DNA from: Candidatus Taylorbacteria bacterium RIFCSPHIGHO2_12_FULL_45_16
GTDB taxonomy: Bacteria > Patescibacteriota > Minisyncoccia > Phycocordibacterales > PALSA-1337
Direction of reading: 5' to 3'
Assembly: GCA_001821055.1 (NCBI GenBank)
Contig: MHRT01000005.1
Span: 156,378-220,377 of the forward strand
DNA length: 64,000 bases
The notes under the pieces are model-generated. The model worked only from the letters and a program-made list of their open reading frames with translations. It did not search any database and was not told the origin of the DNA. Position numbers and translations under genes: made by a program. Positions 10,277 through 49,432 of the stretch are shown piece by piece. Numbering within the stretch: the first letter of the stretch is position 1; every line of letters starts with the position of its first letter.

Positions 10277-10493
10277 AGAAGTAGCGTCTCACAAGGTGGT
10301 GCTCTCCAACTCAAGCCCCAGATACTCTGAGGGAACATCGGAGCGCCTCGTAAGTTATTATCGCATACTTCTGAGATAAGAATAACAAATGGGGCACACC
10401 GTGTGTCAACTAGACATGTGAATTACTTTTAATTTGTAATAAGATGCCTTGTGCAGGAGGCGAAGATTTGACAGAATAATTGCATTTAATATA

Positions 10494-42764: not shown

Positions 42765-42857
42765 GTAATTATTGGGCTAATGGTTAAATGCACGGATAAT
42801 TATATTATGTGATAAAAAAATGTCAAAATTTTGTAACATTACATGAGTCAAATTACT

Positions 42858-43028
42858 GGTAGCCCTACGGGGAATCGCCCGCGCCTCTCGCCTCGCCAGC
42901 TCGGCTCGGGCTGGGCACCGGCTCGCGGCCTCGCGTGCTCGCTCGACATCGCTCCGCCGTTCGATCCCCCAGTCGCAGGCACTCAAAGTGCCTGCTCGGT
43001 TTCTACTAATATTACCTACTTAAGTAAC
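42858..43028. repeat. Direct repeat DR-A (171 bp), beginning with the tRNA-Glu 3'-terminal 19-mer gtagccctacggggaatcg
   Basis: Matches 49179-49350 with about 2 substitutions and 1 indel. Contains the hairpin gcaggcactcaaagtgcctgc. Confidence 0.85.
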
Positions 43029-43036
43029 GTCACCGA

Positions 43037-43083
43037 GTAGGCAAATTGTAACATTCGCGCGAACTTTTTACGAGCAAAATTGA
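43037..43083. repeat. Inverted repeat IR-L (47 bp), partner at 49089-49135
   Basis: gtaggcaaattgtaacattcgcgcgaactttttacgagcaaaattga is the reverse complement of 49089-49135 with 1 mismatch. Confidence 0.85.
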
Positions 43084-43088
43084 AGTAC

Positions 43089-44126
43089 CGCCGCCCACAA
43101 TTTCACTGGGGGCGTGCGAGGGCGGCGGGACTACTGCCTCGGCGCTGAAAACTCGGGGGACTGGGGGCGAGTTTTCAGCGCCGTCCGCTTTTTTGGGGGC
43201 GGGGATGGTTTTAAATTTAAAATTAAAGCGCATACCATTGCTGATATGCGCTTTCCTTAGTCCACGTGACCGTGACCGAGTCTAGCAAAGCACGCTGAAC
43301 AGAACTCTAGCGCACTCGAATTAAAGAACAATGAAATTTTGGAGGGGGTTTTACCTCCCTCCCAGTACTCCACAGCAGACAAGAATGCGTTAGCGAGCTT
43401 GCACTCTACGCCACCGGAAAATGGTAACAATAAAAATTCTTAGACGAGCCCCTGTTTTATCAAGGGCTCGTCCCGTAGACTGCCGCAGTGCACTTGAGTC
43501 TAGCCAAGCAAACTACAGGACGCTTCGGCATGAACTGGTATGCAATACGACCAAATCTAACTGGAAATTTTTGCACGAGTGATTTTTAGGCCACTCGTGC
43601 TCCTTAGAGTGGCGTAGCCGAGTATACTGAAGGAAACCAGACTGCAGCGGACCTCAGAACGCGGGGCCAAACCGGAAAGAGTAACCGACCATACCCGAAG
43701 ATATGGTCGGTTCCGTAGACTGCCGCAGCAAACATTTGGCGCACTGCACGCAACGGCAGCGAAGCCCAGGCTGCGTCACTATCAAAATCATCTAAAAATA
43801 GATTAACATAGATATTATAAAAAGTAAAGCGTATACCATTTCTGATATACGCTTTCATTAGTGAACTGCACGACAGCACAGCCTACGATAGTAAGGCACA
43901 GCATAGTCGAGCGAACCACAAAATGACTACGAAATTATAGCTATAGCCAACTGGACCGAACCAAGATTACTAAACCCGAGAAATTTTTAGTAGGAGTGAT
44001 TTTTAGGCCACCCCTACTCCGTACTGAACCCTACTGCAGGAAGCGCTACGATGGAGAACTGCTCCAAGCGTCACAACTGCGTAGTGTCAGAAATTGTAGC
44101 CGACCCCACCCGAAGATGGGATCGGC
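43089..44126. repeat. ORF-free block of at least 10 stem-loops at ~83-165-nt spacing, in families sharing the loop and inner stem while the outer stem varies with compensatory changes
   Basis: H3 43225-43254 aaagcgcata-ccattgctg-atatgcgcttt pairs with H8 43826-43855 aaagcgtata-ccatttctg-atatacgcttt (c/g changed to t/a on both arms). H6 cacgagtg-atttttaggc-cactcgtg pairs with H9 gtaggagtg-atttttaggc-cacccctac. H7 ccgaccat-acccgaagat-atggtcgg pairs with H10 gccgacccc-acccgaagat-gggatcggc. Most hairpins are followed by CC-R-TA-N (ccgtagactgccgcag twice). Confidence 0.7.
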
Positions 44127-44200
44127 CCGTACTTTGCAGGAGGATACTGGAGCGAACGCGAGCTCAGCTAACTGAAGCATGCACCAGTGTACCCTGTAAA

Positions 44201-46018
44201 CTACTTTCCCTTTAACAGCTCCTCTGCTTGGGAAATGCACTCGTCAAATGTACGATCGTTGACGTATGCCTTTTCAAGCCATTTGGGAAGTGAAGCGTGG
44301 ACGAATCGCCGGAACTGTTGAGACATGAATATTGTCACTCCAAGGTCTTTGGTTGAACGAATGTTCCGACCGCGAACCTGAAGTGCCTGTATCATAACCC
44401 GCCAATTCCACAATGCCCAGCGACTACCACCGAATCGTTCCTCCTCAAACTGAGTGCCCGGATCGCTTGGATTCGGATACCCTGGACGCAGGAAGAAGAT
44501 GACTGGAGCAATCTGTTTGGGCAGATCGACCCCTTCGGCATAGTTTGAAGCTGTGCCGCAGAGGACATCGCCTTCACCATCACGGAAACGAACTGCCGCC
44601 TCCTTGGCGGTCACACCGTTCCCATAACTGATAGCTTTGAGGCCTTCCTCTTCCGCCATCATCATGAACTTATCGCGCTCGAGATTCGAGATGGTGACGA
44701 AGAGACTACGAATCCCTTTGTCTGCCAATCGCTTCGAGGCGCGAGCGACCATGCGAATACTTTTCGGAAGATCACGATTACTGCGTTCGTTCACTGCCAA
44801 GTTGGCTGTGTTCGTCGGCATGAAGAGCCGAGCATTGTCAGATGGAAAGTTGGATTCCAGACTGAATACCGGATTCCGTATCCCCGTCTCGTGCCCGAAT
44901 ACCTCCGGATCACCGATCGTAGCCGAGAGCGCCACCGTCGTCTTGCCCATGATCTTTTGGATAATTGGCGCGACGTAGTAACACTTGACCACCAGTCGAT
45001 ACTGCACATGCTCCTTTTCACCCTTTTCCTCCTTGTAATAGGCGTAGGTGTAGTTGAGCGCGTGGCGATTCTGATCAGGAAGTGAATACTCGAATGAGCG
45101 CAGGTAGCGGCGAAGGTCTTTCACCACAACCTCAAGCTTCTTCAGAGTCTCTCGCTTCTCCACGACATCAATGACTTTTTCCTGCACGGCCTTTTCAAGC
45201 TTGCGCAGGAGTCCTGATTGGTCGATGACCTCGAGTTTCTCCATGAGCGCACCAACCTCGCGTGCATTGAGCACGGTTTTCTGATGCGCCGGTTTCGACT
45301 TGATGATGTAGATCAACTTCTTGTAGAAGTCGTGAAGCAATTCTGCCTCCTCGGCGCCAATCTCTCGCAGAAGCTCCACCGACTTGCGCAAATGCCAATC
45401 GGTTATTTCATACGAGAGCGCGTTCCTGACCACTTCGGCCATGCGGTGTGCTTCGTCAATGACGAGCACTTCCGGCTGTTCCCATTCCCGGCTGAAAAGC
45501 TGGGTGAAGAGATAGAAAGCCATAGTGGAAAGAACAATGCCACCCTGTTTAGCCTCGAACTTCTGCTTCAAGTACGGACAAGGGATCGCTCCCTCGACAA
45601 AAGTCTTGCCTGTTGCTTGGTCCACTCTATGCGGGCAGTCTTTGAGCAGTGAGCATGGGATTTCATCCGCCATCGGCTGTTTGTCTGCCGGCAGTGTGTC
45701 CTTGAAGTAGTGACATTGATGCTCATTGCGCCCGAGAGCGACCTTGAGATCAGGAAACTCTTGGCGGATCTGCTCCATCAGAGTCTTGTTCGTTGTGATG
45801 AGGAAGAGCGGTTGTTTCCGCTTCAAATCCGCGGCCTTGAGTACGGTATACTCTACGGCAGTCTTGCCGCTTCCTGTGGGAGATTCGATCGTGACCGAGC
45901 CATTCTCGGAGATGATACGAAACATTTCCCGCTGACTTGCCCACGGTGCTCTGCGGAGAGCGTTTGTGGGGAATGTCTCTTCTAGCAGAGACAATTTTAG
46001 ATGTTCCAGATGTTGCAT
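44201..46018 (-). CDS. DinG/XPD(Rad3)-family Fe-S cluster DNA helicase
   Basis: Walker A ESPTGSGKTAVEY; four Cys between motifs I and II (HQCHYF, IPCSLLKDCPHR, IPCPYL); DEAH box VLVIDEAHRM; C-terminal helicase motifs (VLCGTASNYAEGVDLP…VIFFLRPGYP). The track ORF extends to 46087; the likely start is MQHLEHL at 46018. GC-rich codon usage. Confidence 0.7.
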   Translation of the reverse strand: MQHLEHLKLSLLEETFPTNALRRAPWASQREMFRIISENGSVTIESPTGSGKTAVEYTVLKAADLKRKQPLFLITTNKTLMEQIRQEFPDLKVALGRNEHQCHYFKDTLPADKQPMADEIPCSLLKDCPHRVDQATGKTFVEGAIPCPYLKQKFEAKQGGIVLSTMAFYLFTQLFSREWEQPEVLVIDEAHRMAEVVRNALSYEITDWHLRKSVELLREIGAEEAELLHDFYKKLIYIIKSKPAHQKTVLNAREVGALMEKLEVIDQSGLLRKLEKAVQEKVIDVVEKRETLKKLEVVVKDLRRYLRSFEYSLPDQNRHALNYTYAYYKEEKGEKEHVQYRLVVKCYYVAPIIQKIMGKTTVALSATIGDPEVFGHETGIRNPVFSLESNFPSDNARLFMPTNTANLAVNERSNRDLPKSIRMVARASKRLADKGIRSLFVTISNLERDKFMMMAEEEGLKAISYGNGVTAKEAAVRFRDGEGDVLCGTASNYAEGVDLPKQIAPVIFFLRPGYPNPSDPGTQFEEERFGGSRWALWNWRVMIQALQVRGRNIRSTKDLGVTIFMSQQFRRFVHASLPKWLEKAYVNDRTFDECISQAEELLKGK

Positions 46019-46032
46019 GTTTCCTTTCTTCT

Positions 46033-46377
46033 CTACTTTTTGTTGTCGATCCAAGCAACGAGCTTGAACCTGCCGATTCCTTCCCACTTGTCCGACCGAC
46101 CAAGCACGTTAGGTGCTCCTGTAGGAATAGTCGTGTTTTCCATGAGCTCGTATAGACGCCCGTGGAATATTGTTCTGAGTCCCGCTTTCACGGTCTCATT
46201 CGGCCTTCCCATAATCGGCAGATAGCGGAATGTTTTGTCCTGCGGATCATATTCGTTCTTTCGTTCAGGTATTAGATGAGCATATTTGTTCACACTCGTA
46301 TGATGTCCGCGTCTTGGTCTGTGATCCGACTTACGACGGAATCGTGGACCATAATGTGGATAGACTTTTTTACCCAT
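46033..46377 (-). CDS. Hypothetical basic protein (island cargo)
   Basis: 114-aa ORF with the SD-like AGGAGAA 9 nt upstream; Arg/His-rich N-terminus. No family recognised. Confidence 0.35.
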   Translation of the reverse strand: MGKKVYPHYGPRFRRKSDHRPRRGHHTSVNKYAHLIPERKNEYDPQDKTFRYLPIMGRPNETVKAGLRTIFHGRLYELMENTTIPTGAPNVLGRSDKWEGIGRFKLVAWIDNKK

Positions 46378-46666
46378 GAGAATATCCGTTCTCCTAAATT
46401 GTATTTGTTGTCAAAAAATCAAGCTTACTCGGCCTGATTCTGGCTTAGCTGTTAAGGGCTTTTCCATTTTTGATGCTAACATACAATAAGTAATCCGTCA
46501 ACTTGCGTAAAGGACCGTGTTCTGTTACGCTGTAATTACAAATGGCTTCGGCCTCGCCCCGCTCACGCGGGGAGGAAGAAATGAGCGATTATTCTATCAA
46601 ACGAATGATCGCTTGTTTTATTTTCTGAAACTGTTCCGAGTCAATGGTGGTGATTTTTTCCTGTAA

Positions 46667-46978
46667 TCACTTGGAGTCTACCAATCGAATTTGAGATAGA
46701 ATGATTTTTCGCGCTACCTTATCACCTAGATTAATATCCGCATAGTATTTTCCTTTTTTATTTTTTGTAGTAAGTGGCACAGATAAAAATACTTCTTTAT
46801 TGAAACCCTTGATGATTAGTACTGGGCGCGCAAAATCAAATCCTTTGCCATCCTGCTCAAATCCAACATTTTCTCCGAGAGAACACCACCAGATTTCTCG
46901 CTCATGATAAAATCGCCGCTCCTTTTCATTATGGATATTTTGCTTGAGTGTATGCCATTTTTGAAAATCTTTTTTCAT
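46667..46978 (-). CDS. MazF/PemK/Kid-like toxin-fold protein (mRNA interferase family); no adjacent antitoxin ORF found
   Basis: …REIWWCSLGENVGFEQDGKGFDFARPVLIIKG…FLSVPLTTKNKKGKYYADINLGDKVARKIILSQIRLVD matches MazF-like logic (RGDI…G.EQ.G.RP.LVL…P.T…….V…QIR.ID). 103 aa. Confidence 0.5.
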   Translation of the reverse strand: MKKDFQKWHTLKQNIHNEKERRFYHEREIWWCSLGENVGFEQDGKGFDFARPVLIIKGFNKEVFLSVPLTTKNKKGKYYADINLGDKVARKIILSQIRLVDSK

Positions 46979-47002: not shown

Positions 47003-48030
47003 GGCAGGCACTCATTGAGAATGCCCGCCCCATAGAATAGGACTAGTCTGGATTAGTGCAGCCAACTCCGCGCAACTTCACGGCACTGTAGACTGAAATT
47101 TCAGACAAGGAACAAGATGGATAAATCTCGGCGGGGAATTTTCATTCCCCGCCCCGTAGACTGGTGAAGCGTGGTTTAGTACAGGCCAACAAGGAGAACA
47201 GAACTACACCTTACCGGATCAAATCACATGTTGAAACCATGACTCCTTCTGTAAAAAGTAAACGGTAGGAGAAAGTTGATGCTCTCTCCTACCCCTTGCG
47301 CAACCGCACCGCTCCCTAGAGTAGCCCACGGGAGGGCAGCTAACTCCAACAAACGATGGTGGAAATGTAAATTCTGCCGTGGAGTTTTACCTCCACGGCC
47401 CATACTCGAGTGCACAGCAGAGAGGAAAGACGCGCTAAGGCGAACTCCGGGCTGGTTTACACTAGAGAAAAGTTTGGCGGGAGTTTTACCTCCCAGCCCC
47501 ATACTTAGGCACGCGACCACTTCAGGCCACAGTGGGCTAGGCCAGGTCACACCACCCTAAATTTGTTTTAGTCTGAATTTAATATAACATACAAAGCTAA
47601 ATTATGCAAATTTAAAGCGCATACCATTGCTGATATGCGCTTTCCATAGAAGACCGATGTGAAGCTTGGCGCACCTCACTGAAGACAGCGGCACGCGACC
47701 AAGGGACACTACAACGGACTCGAAAAGAACAATTATGAAATTATGTCGCGGAGATATTTCACTCCGCGACCAATACTAAACGGCAGTGTAGTCTAGCCCA
47801 CTGCGGCTAACCGAGCTACACCGAGGTGTGCGCGAGACTGCCACAAAGAACAAACTGGAAAGTGAAAGAATGGCGGGGAATTTTCATTCCCCGCCCCGTA
47901 ACACAGATAACTAGAGTTGCAGAAAAGTCCACCACAGTCCGGGGAACAAAACCGCACCTTACGCGACCCTACGTTACGCAAAAAATCTGAAAATTATAGG
48001 CGGAGGTCAATCTTGCGATCAACCTCCGCC
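47003..48030. repeat. ORF-free block of degenerate ~100-138-bp tandem units (three intervals of exactly 127), each carrying one stem-loop
   Basis: Hairpin starts at 47003, 47130, 47264, 47376, 47476, 47614, 47745, 47872, 47999. ggcggggaat-tttc-attccccgcc is identical at 47130 and 47872. gccgtggag-ttttac-ctccacggc and ggcgggag-ttttac-ctcccagcc share loop and inner stem. aaagcgcata…tatgcgcttt at 47614 is a third copy of the array-1 H3 family. Units starting at 47130 and 47872 also share caccttacYg about 80 nt in. Confidence 0.7.
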
Positions 48031-48146
48031 CCACAGAGAAGCCCGGGACAGTTTAGTTCAGTATGCCCTAGTGAGCGACACGCGAGCTAAGACCAGATCA
48101 CCGAACTGCAAACCCTATTGACTCTGAAGGACGCGCGGACGGAAGG

Positions 48147-48839
48147 TCAGCTGGTCACGACTTCCGCGAGCCGATTGGCACCATTGCCCGACACCGGTGC
48201 TGACGCTTCGGTTTCCTCGGACTCTTCGGGTCTCGTGCCTTGCTTGTCCGATTCTTCCATCGTCACTTCCCATTTCTTGACCGCGAAACGGCCGAAGGGA
48301 CCGCCCTTGTTCGGACGGAAGTCACCGATGCCCGCTTTGGAGCCGGCGGTGTCCACAAGCTGGCGAATCAGAGTGTCTTTCGCTTGCTTGCCATCAACTT
48401 GGAAGGTCACATCGAGCGACCAATCCTTGAACTTCGGGCGGACGATGCAGACGGCGATGTCCATGCAGGTACCGCGACGCATGTCGGGTTCCCACGCAAT
48501 TTCGCCCTTGGCGTTGTTGTCCGCGAACGGCAGAAACTCTTCCTCAATGGAGAGGAACGAGTAGAGCAAGGTGCCCTCAGCAGTCGAAACCGCCTTCTTA
48601 CCGTCGAATTTGTGGAACCGACCAGCGGCTTTGATGGCCGCGAGCAGATTCAGTGTGGGAATGCCCATCGGCCCGGTGCTGTCGTTCTGGCGGTAGATCT
48701 TCGTAACAGCTTCCTGTTTTGGCGACAGATCTTTGGCCTTGGGCGCATGGACTTTGGTACGGAGACCTTCCAAGGTCGCCGGAGTCATGCGATTGATAAG
48801 GAGTGGGCTAATGCCCACGAGTAGTGCGCGTATTTTCAT
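48147..48839 (-). CDS. Hypothetical protein (island cargo), acidic C-terminal tail
   Basis: About 230-aa ORF; the likely start is MKIRALLVGISPLL at 48839, and the track ORF begins at 48884. GC-rich. No family recognised. Confidence 0.4.
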   Translation of the reverse strand: MKIRALLVGISPLLINRMTPATLEGLRTKVHAPKAKDLSPKQEAVTKIYRQNDSTGPMGIPTLNLLAAIKAAGRFHKFDGKKAVSTAEGTLLYSFLSIEEEFLPFADNNAKGEIAWEPDMRRGTCMDIAVCIVRPKFKDWSLDVTFQVDGKQAKDTLIRQLVDTAGSKAGIGDFRPNKGGPFGRFAVKKWEVTMEESDKQGTRPEESEETEASAPVSGNGANRLAEVVTS

Positions 48840-49088
48840 AACCTTACTTTCCGACTTTAGAGCAGAATCAATGATCCTGCTCAAGACGTTATTACCTTTG
48901 TTTTATGCTGTCAAAGAAAAGGCTTTGTTAAGCCCTATAAATAGGTCCACCCTAATTACAAAAAAAGGTTAGCACATTGATTTATTTGTGTCAATAGCAT
49001 GCTTGACAACTTTACTATTCTATTTGTATATATAAATACATATAAAGTACACTATTCACGGTCTAATGCGTGTCGGTACAGCGGGACA

Positions 49089-49135
49089 TCAATTTTGCTC
49101 GTAAAAAGTTCGCGTGAATGTTACAATTTGCCTAC
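49089..49135. repeat. Inverted repeat IR-R (partner of 43037-43083)
   Basis: tcaattttgctcgtaaaaagttcgcgtgaatgttacaatttgcctac. Confidence 0.85.
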
Positions 49136-49178
49136 CAACAAAAATGGCCTTCGCATTCGCTTAGGCTCATTTTTGTAT

Positions 49179-49350
49179 TGGTAGCCCTACGGGGAATCGC
49201 CCGCGCCTCTCGCCTCGCCAGCTCGGCTCGGGCTGGGCACCGGCTCGCGGCCTCGCGTGCTCGCTCGGCATCGCTCCGCCGTTCGATTCCCCAGTCGCAG
49301 GCACTCAAAGTGCCTGCTCGGTTTCTACTAATATTACCTACTTAAGTAAC
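49179..49350. repeat. Direct repeat DR-B (172 bp), immediately adjacent to tRNA-Glu
   Basis: See DR-A. Separated from the tRNA 3' end by only 10 nt (aacatctctc, 49351-49360). Confidence 0.85.
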
Positions 49351-49360
49351 ATCTCTCTCG

Positions 49361-49432
49361 TAGCCCTACGGGGAATCGAACCCCGATTACTGCCTTGAGA
49401 AGGCAATGTCCTAACCGTTAGACGATAGGGCC
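49361..49432 (-). tRNA. tRNA-Glu (anticodon CUC)
   Basis: Minus-strand read GGCCCTA-TC-GTCT-AACGGTTA-GGAC-A-TTGCC-TTCTCAA-GGCAG-TAAT-CGGGG-TTCGATT-CCCCG-TAGGGCT-A: cloverleaf with G1.U72, 7-nt T-loop TTCGATT, anticodon loop TTCTCAA. CCA not encoded. Confidence 0.8.

What the first reader, a model, noticed from the sequence alone, without database searches (positions are those of the whole stretch)
47003..48030. Hairpin array 2: nine degenerate ~127-bp tandem units, each with one variable-stem hairpin, on the other side of the cargo genes
**Observed**
- Hairpin starts at 47003, 47130, 47264, 47376, 47476, 47614, 47745, 47872 and 47999.
- Spacing is 100-138 bp, with three intervals of exactly 127 bp.
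- The units beginning at 47130 and 47872 carry the identical hairpin ggcggggaattttcattccccgcc followed by ccgta, and share a caccttacYg motif about 80 nt further on, so the units are homologous.
- A second family shows covariation: gccgtGGAG-ttttac-CTCCacggc versus ggcgGGAG-ttttac-CTCCcagcc, and also ggaggGGGttttacCTCCctcc in array 1.
- The aaagcgcata…tatgcgcttt hairpin of array 1 recurs here at 47614.

**Interpretation**
- Two such arrays flank the MazF-like, 114-aa and helicase genes.
- A regular-ish array of structured units beside a helicase invites comparison with CRISPR-like or retron-like systems.
- The units are too long and too divergent for CRISPR repeats, and there is no spacer-like hypervariable core.
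- This could be a family of tandem sRNA genes, protein-binding centromere/iteron-like sites, or substrates of a structure-specific recombinase.
Basis: seen in the sequence. Interest (0 to 1): 0.75.

Follow-up and report, generated by a model that had tools for sequence, protein, structure and literature searches.

The report
Guide-RNA gene array of a VIPR system
The "hairpin array" is a row of nine small guide-RNA genes (vrRNAs), read on the opposite strand, belonging to a VIPR system, a CRISPR-like RNA-guided DNA-recognition system first described in 2026; it is a clear new example in a candidate-phyla-radiation (CPR) bacterium, not a new kind of element.

Summary
The nine hairpins are real and sit at the stated coordinates. 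They occur only inside a 6.5-kb GC-rich island next to tRNA-Glu.

Read on the minus strand, each unit is a small RNA gene:
- 9-17 tandem pentanucleotides of form YNNNS (position 1 is T 78% / C 20%; position 5 is G or C 97%; positions 2-4 are close to random);
- a last pentamer TAYGG;
- a stable hairpin directly after it, then an A/T-rich tail.

An untrained periodicity model finds 17 such tracts, one per hairpin, in the two arrays. It finds one elsewhere on the minus strand of the 64 kb.

The 245-aa gene upstream (48147-48884, minus strand) is a homologue of the solved SUSP1 Vipr protein (profile E 8e-22). It keeps the G-loop D-[W/F]-R and a thumb region that aligns with SUSP1's (RPxFxDW).

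The 605-aa DinG/XPD-like helicase is the accessory (vap) gene. Relatives in other CPR genomes show the same layout of vipr, array, helicase, array.

In two orthologous vrRNAs, substitutions avoid positions 2-3 (2 of 48) and pile up at position 4 (12 of 24). This is what the published NN guide code predicts.

Verdict: a new member of a known kind (VIPR, helicase-associated, YNNNG-like repeats). The targets remain unproven; there is one candidate.

The parts
47003..48110 (-). vrRNA array 2: nine vrRNA genes (A2-1 to A2-9), between vipr and the MazF-like ORF
   Evidence: The pentamer HMM finds one tract per hairpin, each ending at the hairpin's 5' base.
47999..48110 (-). vrRNA A2-1: 16 pentamers (48031-48110) plus hairpin (47999-48030)
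   Evidence: A sigma-70-like promoter for the next unit overlaps this hairpin (TTGATC-18-TATAAT).
47872..47981 (-). vrRNA A2-2: ~17 pentamers with one 6-nt unit (47896-47981) plus hairpin (47872-47895)
47745..47845 (-). vrRNA A2-3: 15 pentamers (47771-47845) plus hairpin (47745-47770). An ortholog is present in L020.
47614..47723 (-). vrRNA A2-4: 16 pentamers (47644-47723) plus hairpin (47614-47643). L020 has the same hairpin with a different guide.
47476..47559 (-). vrRNA A2-5: 12 pentamers with one 6-nt unit (47499-47559) plus a bulged hairpin (47476-47498). It has an ortholog in L020 and a candidate target.
47376..47469 (-). vrRNA A2-6: 14 pentamers (47400-47469) plus hairpin (47376-47399)
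47264..47363 (-). vrRNA A2-7: 14 pentamers (47294-47363) plus hairpin (47264-47293)
47130..47218 (-). vrRNA A2-8: 13 pentamers (47154-47218) plus hairpin (47130-47153)
47003..47095 (-). vrRNA A2-9: ~13 pentamers (47030-47095) plus hairpin (47003-47029, with 2 G.U pairs) and an ATTTTTTTAT tail. It ends 25 nt upstream of the MazF-like start codon.
43225..44196 (-). vrRNA array 1: eight vrRNA genes downstream of the helicase. Hairpins are at 44098-44127, 43989-44018, 43826-43855, 43683-43712, 43573-43600, 43442-43473, 43341-43362 and 43225-43254. There is also a hairpin-less partial tract at 43941-43979.
48147..48884 (-). vipr: a 245-aa minimal RAMP protein. The true start may be the internal Met at residue 16.
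   Evidence: Family profile against PDB 36pp_D (SUSP1 Vipr): E 7.7e-22 over residues 1-189. The single sequence gives 3.8e-5 and aligns GIGDFRP with GVGDWRP. The AlphaFold model has pLDDT 83.6. Foldseek's best matches are Cas7/Csm3. phrog_4652 matches at 6e-18.
44201..46018 (-). vap: a 605-aa DinG/XPD-like SF2 helicase (the ORF extends to 46087 from an upstream GTG)
   Evidence: Pfam DEAD, ResIII, DEAD_2 and Helicase_C_2. PADLOC typeIV_DinG PDLC01439 at E 4.9e-43 over the full length. phrog_2488. It lies next to vipr in L004-L012.
46033..46377 (-). 114-aa basic protein of unknown function, ending 14 nt before the helicase start codon
   Evidence: No family hits. Only 3 protein clusters exist, and all lie in helicase loci of this kind.
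46586..46978 (-). MazF/PemK-like ORF interrupted by an in-frame TGA (46667-46669), followed by 26 more in-frame codons. It lies in a low-GC stretch (35-38%).
42854..43031 (.). Left copy of the 178-nt direct repeat that bounds the island. It contains a 22-nt copy of the 3' end of tRNA-Glu.
   Evidence: D1, D7
49176..49353 (.). Right copy of the 178-nt direct repeat, adjacent to tRNA-Glu (49360-49432, minus strand)
43037..43091 (.). Left arm of a 55-nt inverted repeat just inside the direct repeats (partner at 49081-49135, 95% complementary). Role unknown.
   Evidence: I1
49081..49135 (.). Right arm of the 55-nt inverted repeat, upstream of vipr

Best explanation
The region 47003-48110 is an array of nine vrRNA genes of a VIPR (Viral Interference Programmable Repeat) system, read on the minus strand. 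A second array of eight lies at 43225-44196.

The system sits on a 6.5-kb island integrated beside tRNA-Glu in a Candidatus Taylorbacteria (CPR) genome. Its order on the minus strand is: vipr, array 2, MazF-like remnant, 114-aa ORF, DinG/XPD-like helicase (vap), array 1.

Each vrRNA is about 90-130 nt and consists of:
- a short A/T-rich leader;
- 9-17 pentamers of form Y-N-N-n-S, the last being TAYGG;
- an 8-15-bp hairpin followed by an AAWTTTC-like tail.

By analogy with the solved SUSP1 complex (inferred, not shown here), one Vipr protomer binds each pentamer. It sequesters the scaffold bases (n-S-Y, equivalent to G-G-Y) and presents the NN dinucleotide. The NNs pair with double-stranded DNA, skipping every third target base. 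[quoted passage not shown] It probably also serves as an intrinsic terminator or 3'-end protector, so that each unit yields a discrete RNA.

The helicase is presumably recruited to the bound target. It could extend silencing or unwind and displace the target, as DinG does in type IV-A CRISPR.

The likely biological role is sequence-specific interference with competing mobile elements or other foreign DNA.
For: Shown here:
1. The family profile of the 245-aa protein matches the solved SUSP1 Vipr chain 36pp_D at E 7.7e-22 over its whole length. The pairwise alignment puts GIGDFRP opposite GVGDWRP and RPKFKDW opposite RPIFRDW. In SUSP1, D177/W178/R179 and R138 contact the GGY bases. D188, F189, R190, R136 and R149 are invariant in 42 homologues. 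The fold matches Cas7/Csm3.
2. An untrained HMM (Y at position 1, S at position 5) finds 18 minus-strand tracts of 40 nt or more in 64 kb. Seventeen are in the two arrays, one per hairpin, each ending at the hairpin base. Shuffled arrays give 0.8 nt in tracts against 1237 nt observed. The trained profile is T .78 / C .20 at position 1, G .53 / C .44 / A 0 at position 5, and near-uniform at positions 2-4.
3. The strand is the minus strand: G.U pairs and folding energies, terminator-like tails, and in-phase T periodicity seen only on the minus strand.
4. The layout vipr, array, helicase, array, with the same pentamers ending TAYGG before a hairpin, recurs in four further loci in which vipr is 43-57% identical (L001, L004, L008, L011). 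Tracts lie on the gene strand with a single exception (one opposite-strand tract in L011).
5. In orthologous vrRNAs of L020 (Vipr 84% identical), substitutions per pentamer position are 5, 2, 0, 12 and 5 out of 24. Positions 2+3 against position 4 give Fisher p = 1e-5, and every change at position 1 is T<->C. This is the pattern expected if NN carries the specificity.
6. Relatives L022 and L023 share hairpin families with the window but carry different guides.

From the literature:
- VIPR consists of Vipr, a vap gene and ~100-nt vrRNAs of 9-16 YNNGG repeats plus a structured 3' tail (PMC13142463).
- Variant repeats NNNGG, YNNNG and NNNNG occur.
- The vap genes of types III-V include nucleases or helicases.
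Against: - No RNA data exist for this locus, so transcription, 5' ends and processing are inferred.
- Only 3 of 17 units have a recognisable sigma-70-like promoter, so some units may be made by read-through and processing.
- The scaffold is weaker than the canonical GGY. Position 5 is C in 44% of pentamers, and the first G is not conserved.
- The 3' tail differs in sequence between units, whereas the tail described for SUSP1 is invariable.
- No secure target was found. There was no self-match in the window under seven skip rules. Viral scans gave only chance-level hits.
- There is a single candidate target, and no other guide supports it.
- The VIPR type number could not be read from the papers' text.
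Confidence: 0.9

Rival explanations
1. These are generic tandem small-RNA genes, or a stack of intrinsic terminators or insulators, with no functional link to the neighbouring proteins.
For: On the minus strand the hairpins resemble terminators. Tandem sRNA gene families exist in bacteria (own knowledge).
Against: This does not explain the strand-specific 5-nt periodicity that ends exactly at each hairpin. It does not explain the position-specific substitution pattern. It does not explain the strict co-occurrence with a Vipr homologue and the helicase in distant genomes.
Confidence: 0.04
2. The array is a type III toxin-antitoxin-like antitoxin RNA. It would lie directly upstream of the MazF-like endoribonuclease gene, which would process it and be neutralised by it.
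For: Array 2 ends with a terminator hairpin 25 nt upstream of the MazF-like start codon. ToxN-type toxins resemble the MazF/Kid fold (own knowledge).
Against: - The MazF-like ORF carries an in-frame stop codon and has a foreign, low GC content.
- Related loci have the arrays but no MazF gene.
- The units are ~100-138 bp and divergent, not 34-36-nt near-identical repeats.
- An identical type of array lies downstream of the helicase, far from the MazF-like gene.
Confidence: 0.02
3. The hairpins are DNA-level sites: REP/RAYT-like or IS200/IS605-like hairpin substrates, attC-like recombination sites, or iterons/centromere sites.
For: The stems vary in sequence and carry a conserved flanking motif (CCRTA on the + strand), which recalls hairpin-plus-tetranucleotide recognition by HUH enzymes. 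The island has terminal direct and inverted repeats.
Against: - The island contains no HUH transposase, integrase, replication or partition gene.
- The hairpins are confined to the island rather than dispersed.
- Twenty G.U pairs on one strand point to RNA structure rather than DNA structure.
- The conserved flank is simply the last guide pentamer, TAYGG.
Confidence: 0.02
4. The array is a degenerate or atypical CRISPR array of a type IV-like system.
For: The helicase gives a full-length match to PADLOC's type IV-A DinG model. The neighbouring protein is a Cas7-like RAMP.
Against: - There are no constant direct repeats or uniform spacers.
- There is no Cas6, Cas5, Cas8 or Cas1-like gene.
- The RAMP groups with Vipr by sequence.
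- The guides have pentamer periodicity.
Confidence: 0.01

Closest known systems
VIPR systems (Vipr + vrRNA + vap). References: PMC13142463 / doi 10.64898/2026.04.26.720920, and the cryo-EM study doi 10.64898/2026.04.26.720927. The closest match is the helicase-associated form with YNNNG-type repeats.
   Same: - A ~20-27-kDa single-RRM RAMP that keeps the G-loop D-[W/F]-R and the aligned thumb segment.
- ~100-nt RNAs made of 9-17 pentamers with a conserved scaffold and variable inner bases, followed by a structured 3' end.
- RNA genes in the long intergenic regions flanking the protein genes.
- One accessory gene predicted to act on DNA.
- Presence on a mobile island.
   Different: - The scaffold is n-S-Y rather than G-G-Y: C is as common as G at the second position, and the first G is free.
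- The 3' tail is a plain hairpin that falls into at least 10 sequence families within one locus, kept by compensatory change. The tail described for SUSP1 is invariable and pseudoknotted.
- There are 17 guides in two arrays.
- The island carries an extra 114-aa gene and an interrupted MazF-like gene.
- The host is a CPR bacterium.
- No target has been verified.
Type IV-A CRISPR-Cas (Csf complex with DinG/Csf4)
   Same: A RAMP backbone protein that polymerises on a guide RNA, combined with a DinG/XPD-family helicase. Action is probably by interference or silencing rather than by nuclease cutting.
   Different: - No CRISPR repeat-spacer array.
- No Cas6/Csf5, Cas5/Csf3 or Cas8-like Csf1.
- Guides are separate genes with gapped pentamer code.
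- The RAMP is Vipr-like and lacks the elaborations of Cas7.
Type III toxin-antitoxin loci (ToxIN, CptIN, TenpIN)
   Same: A repetitive non-coding RNA region ending in a terminator lies directly upstream of a small endoribonuclease-like gene.
   Different: The repeats are not short near-identical units. The MazF-like gene is interrupted and is absent from related loci. A second array is not next to any toxin gene.
Tandem sRNA gene families, each with its own intrinsic terminator (for example LhrC1-5 and Qrr; from own knowledge)
   Same: Several ~100-nt RNA genes lie head to tail, each ending in a hairpin.
   Different: Here the RNA bodies carry a protein-read 5-nt code and are tied to a dedicated RAMP protein.

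Membership tests
VIPR system | A Vipr protein: a minimal RAMP homologous to the characterised Vipr proteins | tested here: met
   The family profile matches PDB 36pp_D (SUSP1 Vipr) at E 7.7e-22 over residues 1-189 of 202. The single sequence gives E 3.8e-5. The fold matches Cas7/Csm3.
VIPR system | Residues that hold the GGY scaffold: a thumb Arg and the G-loop D-W-R (SUSP1 R138, D177, W178, R179) | tested here: met
   GIGDFRP aligns with GVGDWRP, and RPKFKDW aligns with RPIFRDW. D188, F189, R190, R136 and R149 are invariant in 42 homologues. W is replaced by F. Which arginine is the exact equivalent of SUSP1 R138 rests on the alignment only.
VIPR system | vrRNAs built of tandem pentanucleotide repeats (YNNGG, or the variants NNNGG, YNNNG, NNNNG) | tested here: met
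   There are 17 tracts of YNNNS pentamers on the minus strand. Shuffled controls give ~0. The form is closest to the YNNNG variant named in the preprint's methods, but with G or C at the last position.
VIPR system | About 9-16 repeats (up to 30) followed by a structured 3' tail | tested here: met
   Each unit has 9-17 pentamers followed at once by an 8-15-bp hairpin of dG -13 to -26 kcal/mol. The tail is a simple hairpin that varies in sequence, not an invariable pseudoknotted tail.
VIPR system | Scaffold positions are conserved and the NN positions carry the specificity | tested here: met
   Between paralogues, positions 2-4 are near-uniform while positions 1 and 5 are constrained. Between orthologues, positions 2-3 change in 2 of 48 cases and position 4 in 12 of 24.
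VIPR system | A minimal locus with one adjacent accessory (vap) gene predicted to act on DNA | tested here: met
   A DinG/XPD-like helicase is in the same operon direction. The same gene pair is found in L004-L012. The preprint states that types III-V have nuclease or helicase vaps.
VIPR system | The vrRNAs are expressed as discrete ~100-nt RNAs and bound by Vipr | not testable with these tools
   This needs sRNA-seq or pull-down. The only computational evidence is terminator-like tails and a few promoter-like sites.
VIPR system | Double-stranded DNA targets match the NN code with a 1-nt skip | tested here: inconclusive
   There is no match in the window. Five viral scans gave only chance-level hits. 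Guide A2-5 matches the end of one conserved small ORF in frame, in 10 of 11 metagenome loci and 3 of 3 genome loci. About one chance hit per database is expected, and no other guide converges on these loci.
CRISPR-Cas (including type IV-A) | An array of near-identical direct repeats separated by unique spacers of similar length | tested here: not met
   Tandem Repeats Finder and the repeat finder show no constant repeat. The hairpins fall into many sequence families.
CRISPR-Cas (including type IV-A) | The Cas gene set (Cas6/Csf5, Cas5/Csf3, Cas8-like Csf1, or Cas1-Cas2) | tested here: not met
   Only the helicase matches a cas-associated model. No other island ORF matches Pfam, NCBIfam or PADLOC cas models.
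Type III toxin-antitoxin | Short (~34-36 nt) near-identical tandem RNA repeats upstream of an intact ToxN/AbiQ-type toxin gene | tested here: not met
   The units are 100-138 bp and divergent. The gene is PemK/MazF-like with an in-frame stop codon. It is absent from related loci.
REP / RAYT-type repeated palindromes | Palindromes dispersed through intergenic regions of the genome, with an associated HUH tyrosine transposase | tested here: not met
   The hairpins with this motif occur only inside the island. No HUH protein was detected.

The most novel reading that the evidence does not exclude
Guide A2-5, and its ortholog in L020, may really target the 3' end of a conserved chromosomal small-peptide gene (...CPSYEGDSxSPGGGDGSTGEGV*). 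This gene lies next to an M16 peptidase in CPR genomes and also occurs in a Verrucomicrobiia genome.

If so, this helicase-type VIPR would silence or attack a cellular gene of neighbouring or host bacteria, or a cryptic element carrying that gene, rather than a phage.

A further possibility is that the locus-internal diversity of hairpin tails acts as a second layer of identity. It could sort guides between effector states or control how the helicase is loaded.
Probability: 0.12. Interest if true: 0.7.

Novelty: new member of a known kind. Interest (0 to 1): 0.38.

Why it matters
VIPR was described only in 2026 and characterised mainly in E. coli and Pseudomonas phages. This locus is a clean, guide-rich natural example (17 guides) of the helicase-associated form, in an ultra-small CPR bacterium.

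It adds several points:
- Independent comparative evidence that positions 2-3 of each pentamer carry the specificity, while the position equivalent to the first G can drift freely.
- Evidence that the 3' cap can be any stable hairpin placed directly after a TAYGG pentamer.
- A pairing of a Vipr RAMP with a DinG-family helicase, as in type IV-A CRISPR. This bears on the proposed descent of CRISPR effectors from VIPR.

The helicase family is large in Patescibacteria (at least 404 relatives). The system may therefore be a common, so far unannotated defence or conflict module in CPR genomes. At present gene callers place spurious ORFs inside the arrays.

Tried and rejected
1. tRNA, tmRNA and Rfam searches of the arrays found no family. 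This holds at the gathering thresholds and at E up to 1.
2. Tandem Repeats Finder found no ~127-bp period.
3. The ORFs inside array 2 (108 aa on the minus strand, 94 aa on the plus strand) have no Pfam match and overlap guide tracts, so they were treated as spurious.
4. A self-target search in the window under seven rules (NN or NNN with 0-3 skipped bases) gave only null-level scores.
5. Target scans used exact NNx patterns.
   - Five scans of viral contigs gave 0-2 hits each. The three hits whose extensions were scored matched 4 of 14, 4 of 14 and 4 of 12 flanking positions; the fourth lies in an unrelated sequence. All are consistent with chance.
   - A 24-base A2-3 pattern gave nothing in the metagenome collection.
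6. A convergence test asked whether the window's other 16 guides, and 43 guide tracts from relatives, also hit the candidate-target contigs. None exceeded its shuffled null by the preset margin.
7. The candidate peptide gene has no homologue in the window.
8. The period-5 tract called on the + strand inside the 178-nt direct repeat looks like a GC-composition effect: 12 of 19 pentamers fit in the best register.
9. Strain comparison of the island was uninformative. Four other metagenome contigs are identical, apart from mismatches at one contig end.
10. The VIPR type number could not be obtained, because the figure with the type scheme is not held as text.
Full report
**1. The observation.**
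The nine hairpins are present at exactly the stated starts, with spacings of 127, 134, 112, 100, 138, 131, 127 and 127 bp. The hairpins at 47130 and 47872 are identical. The AAAGCGCATA...TATGCGCTTT hairpin occurs at 43225 and 47614, and a doubly compensated variant is at 43826. Perfect stems of 9 bp or more are about 36 times denser in the two arrays (11 in ~2.2 kb) than outside the island (8 in ~57 kb). Hairpins followed by CC[RAT]TA occur nowhere else in the window. Tandem Repeats Finder sees no ~127-bp repeat. The units share hairpin families and a 5-nt scaffold, not overall sequence.

**2. The strand.**
On the minus strand each hairpin is preceded by TAYGG and followed by an A/T-rich tail with a short T run. 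Many are called terminator-like by a consensus scan. All 17 hairpins of both arrays fold as well or better as minus-sense RNA (summed dG -316.8 against -254.8 kcal/mol). They contain 20 G.U pairs that would be A.C mismatches on the + strand. The outer 7 bp are 98% paired across 15 distinct hairpins, with 2-5 pair types per position. Permuting the 3' arms lowers this to 59%. The structure is therefore conserved at the RNA level, and the RNAs are on the same strand as all the island's genes.

**3. The setting.**
The arrays lie in a GC-rich island (50-58% GC against ~40% in the host).
- The island is bounded by 178-nt direct repeats (42854-43031 and 49176-49353). Each contains a 22-nt copy of the 3' end of the adjacent tRNA-Glu gene (49360-49432, minus strand).
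- 55-nt inverted repeats lie just inside the direct repeats.
- The gene order on the minus strand is: a 245-aa ORF, array 2, a MazF/PemK-like ORF, a 114-aa ORF, a DinG/XPD-like helicase, array 1.
- The helicase matches PADLOC's type IV-A-associated DinG model over its full length (E 4.9e-43).
- The 114-aa protein is 100% identical to a protein annotated in a Candidatus Taylorbacteria MAG, so the host is a CPR bacterium.

**4. The key protein.**
The 245-aa protein has no Pfam match but belongs to phrog_4652. It has 67 homologues, all unannotated.
- A profile of 42 of them matches one solved structure, 36pp chain D 'SUSP1 Vipr protein', at E 7.7e-22 over residues 1-189.
- The single sequence aligns GIGDFRP with GVGDWRP and RPKFKDW with RPIFRDW. 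In the cryo-EM study these segments hold the residues that contact the GGY bases: R138, D177, W178 and R179.
- The corresponding residues are invariant in the family.
- An AlphaFold model (pLDDT 83.6) finds Cas7 and Csm3 subunits as its best structural matches, as expected for a RAMP.

**5. What VIPR is.**
Two 2026 preprints describe these systems: PMC13142463 (doi 10.64898/2026.04.26.720920) and doi 10.64898/2026.04.26.720927.
- A VIPR system consists of a minimal RAMP (Vipr), one accessory gene (vap) and ~100-nt vrRNAs.
- The vrRNAs are encoded in the flanking intergenic regions. They are built of 9-16 YNNGG pentamers followed by a structured 3' tail.
- One protomer binds each pentamer and sequesters GGY. 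The NN dinucleotides pair with double-stranded DNA, skipping every third base.
- The methods mention variant repeats NNNGG, YNNNG and NNNNG.
- Types III-V have nuclease or helicase vap genes.

**6. Testing the vrRNA prediction.**
An a-priori HMM with only 'Y at position 1, S at position 5' was run over the whole window.
- It minus-strand tracts of 40 nt or more. Seventeen are in the two arrays, one per hairpin, each ending at the hairpin's first base.
- Block-shuffled arrays give 0.8 nt in tracts, against 1237 nt observed.
- In-phase T periodicity (at least 9 of 12) is found in 17.5% of minus-strand array windows, in 0.8% elsewhere, and in none on the + strand of the arrays.
- The trained profile is T .78 / C .20 at position 1, G .53 / C .44 / A 0 at position 5, and close to uniform at positions 2-4.
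- Each unit has 9-17 pentamers.

The 'caccttacYg' motif is the pentamer run ..G TAAGG TG.

**7. Conservation of the architecture.**
Loci encoding Vipr homologues of 41-57% identity carry vipr, a 0.7-1.3-kb 'gap' and a ~600-aa helicase. These are L004-L007, L008-L010 and L011-L012; L001 is cut off before any helicase.
- In L001, L004, L008 and L011, the gaps and the stretch after the helicase are filled with the same pentamer tracts, ending TAYGG, TATGG or TAAGG directly before a hairpin. They lie on the gene strand, apart from one opposite-strand tract in L011.
- The helicase family has at least 404 members, which where named are from Patescibacteria.

**8. An independent test of the code.**
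L020 (Vipr 84% identical) carries orthologues of vrRNAs A2-3 and A2-5 (alignment A2).
- Over 24 pentamers, substitutions fall 5, 2, 0, 12 and 5 at positions 1-5.
- All changes at position 1 are T<->C.
- Positions 2+3 against position 4 give Fisher p = 1e-5.

So positions 2-3 (the NN) are under constraint, position 4 (equivalent to the first G) is free, and positions 1 and 5 vary only within their class. In the same alignment, A2-4 keeps its hairpin but has an unrelated guide. L022 and L023 share hairpin families with the window but not guides. Guides therefore turn over while the caps persist.

**9. Targets.**
- No guide matches the window itself under any of seven rules. This agrees with the preprint's report of no self-targeting.
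- Exact NNx patterns of nine pentamers from A2-1, A2-3 (two), A2-4 and A2-5 gave 0-2 hits each in viral contigs. The scored extensions were at chance level.
- A 20-base pattern from A2-5, chosen because its NNs are conserved in L020, hit 11 metagenome loci and 3 genome loci. Thirteen of these 14 hits are the last ten codons, including the stop, of one small ORF family (...CPSYEGDSxSPGGGDGSTGEGV*). They are in frame, with the skipped base at the wobble position.
- In several of these loci the preceding codon is GGN, which gives the L020 guide a 22 of 22 match.
- The peptide gene lies next to an M16 peptidase in chromosomal contexts in CPR genomes: Saccharibacteria, Parcubacteria and contigs from Hainich groundwater.
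- About one chance hit per database of this size is expected, and the family counts as one independent event. No other guide from this or related loci converges on these contigs.

I treat this as a lead with roughly even odds, not a result.

**10. The other genes.**
- The MazF-like ORF lies in a low-GC stretch. It has an in-frame TGA (46667-46669) followed by 26 more in-frame codons, so it looks like a decaying passenger gene. It is absent from related loci.
- The 114-aa basic protein ends 14 nt before the helicase start codon. It has only three homologous clusters, all in helicase loci of this kind. It may be an optional accessory protein.
- No integrase or transposase was recognised in the island.
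- Four other metagenome contigs carry the island with an identical sequence, apart from mismatches at one contig end.

**11. Mechanism, with status of each step.**
Shown here:
- the Vipr homology and the conserved contact residues;
- the pentamer tracts, their strand and their junction with conserved hairpins;
- the position-specific constraint;
- the conserved locus layout.

Inferred by analogy with SUSP1:
- filament assembly with one protomer per pentamer;
- presentation of the NN dinucleotides;
- gapped pairing with double-stranded DNA;
- silencing of the target.

Inferred from sequence only:
- the hairpin as 3' cap and terminator;
- separate or read-through transcription (only 3 of 17 units have a sigma-70-like promoter);
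- recruitment of the helicase.

**12. Verdict.**
The finding is real. It is explained as vrRNA array 2 of a helicase-associated VIPR system with YNNNS repeats, in a CPR genome. It is a new member of a recently described kind. Its distinctive features are:
- a relaxed scaffold;
- hairpin caps that vary in sequence and are maintained by covariation;
- 17 guides in two arrays;
- a DinG-family partner shared with type IV-A CRISPR.

Noticed in passing
window 46586-46978 (-): The MazF/PemK-like gene has an in-frame TGA at 46667-46669, followed by 26 more in-frame codons (LQEKITTIDSEQFQKIKQAIIRLIE). It is either a nonsense-mutated pseudogene or, less likely, a recoded stop. Its GC content (35-38%) differs from the rest of the island.
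   Followed up: partly
window 42854-43031 and 49176-49353; tRNA-Glu 49360-49432 (-): 178-nt direct repeats (98% identical) bound the island. Each ends with a 22-nt copy of the tRNA-Glu 3' end, as in tRNA-targeted integrative elements, yet no integrase is recognisable in the island. The repeat also contains a GC-rich stretch with apparent 5-nt periodicity on the + strand and a 9-bp hairpin (42975-42995). The periodicity is probably a composition effect.
   Followed up: partly
window 43037-43091 and 49081-49135: 55-nt inverted repeats (95% complementary) lie just inside the direct repeats. The right arm is upstream of vipr. They could be transposon-like ends, promoters or operators.
   Followed up: no
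window 43140-43203 (+): A 16-bp perfect hairpin followed by TCCGCTTTTTT on the + strand, just after the left inverted repeat. It looks like a + strand terminator, possibly ending a ~100-nt transcript that starts in the inverted repeat.
   Followed up: no
window 43941-43979 (-): A pentamer tract of about 8 units with no hairpin, followed by CTATAATTTC and then the next tract. It may be a decayed vrRNA or a leader fused to vrRNA A1-3.
   Followed up: no
window arrays; L001, L020, L022, L023: Two short motifs recur between units. AAWTTTC lies 1-3 nt after most hairpins. (A)TTGTTCTTT lies directly before the first pentamer of several units. Both are conserved in relatives and may mark 3'-end or termination signals and promoter or 5'-end signals.
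   Followed up: partly
L028 5135-5251, L030 9510-9617, L032 3824-3943, L040, L041, L042: A conserved 35-39-aa acidic peptide gene (...EEGCPSYEGDSxSPGGGDGSTGEGV*) lies next to an M16 (insulinase-like) peptidase in CPR genomes. In L028 and L030 there is also a second small peptide (MP..TIGDPMPTI...DDFDxRVPN). The arrangement looks like a RiPP-type precursor-protease pair. The end of the peptide gene is the candidate target of guide A2-5.
   Followed up: partly
window 46033-46377 (-); L036 4125-4466; L038 6001-6327: The 114-aa arginine-rich protein has only three homologous clusters in 5.8 billion proteins. All lie in loci with the same helicase family, so it may be an optional accessory protein of this VIPR clade.
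   Followed up: partly
window 10277-10372 (-): A full-length match to the Rfam DUF3800-V RNA (76.7 bits, E 1e-15). DUF3800 proteins also sit beside the helicase in L038.
   Followed up: no
L022 909-1995; L001 303-803: In close relatives, vipr is preceded by phage or mobile-element genes: RusA and a resolvase fragment in L022, and a NYN-domain protein in L001. This fits the mobile or phage origin of these systems.
   Followed up: no
L008 6456-6740: In this relative, two vrRNA units lie upstream of vipr as well as downstream. Arrays can therefore flank vipr on both sides.
   Followed up: no
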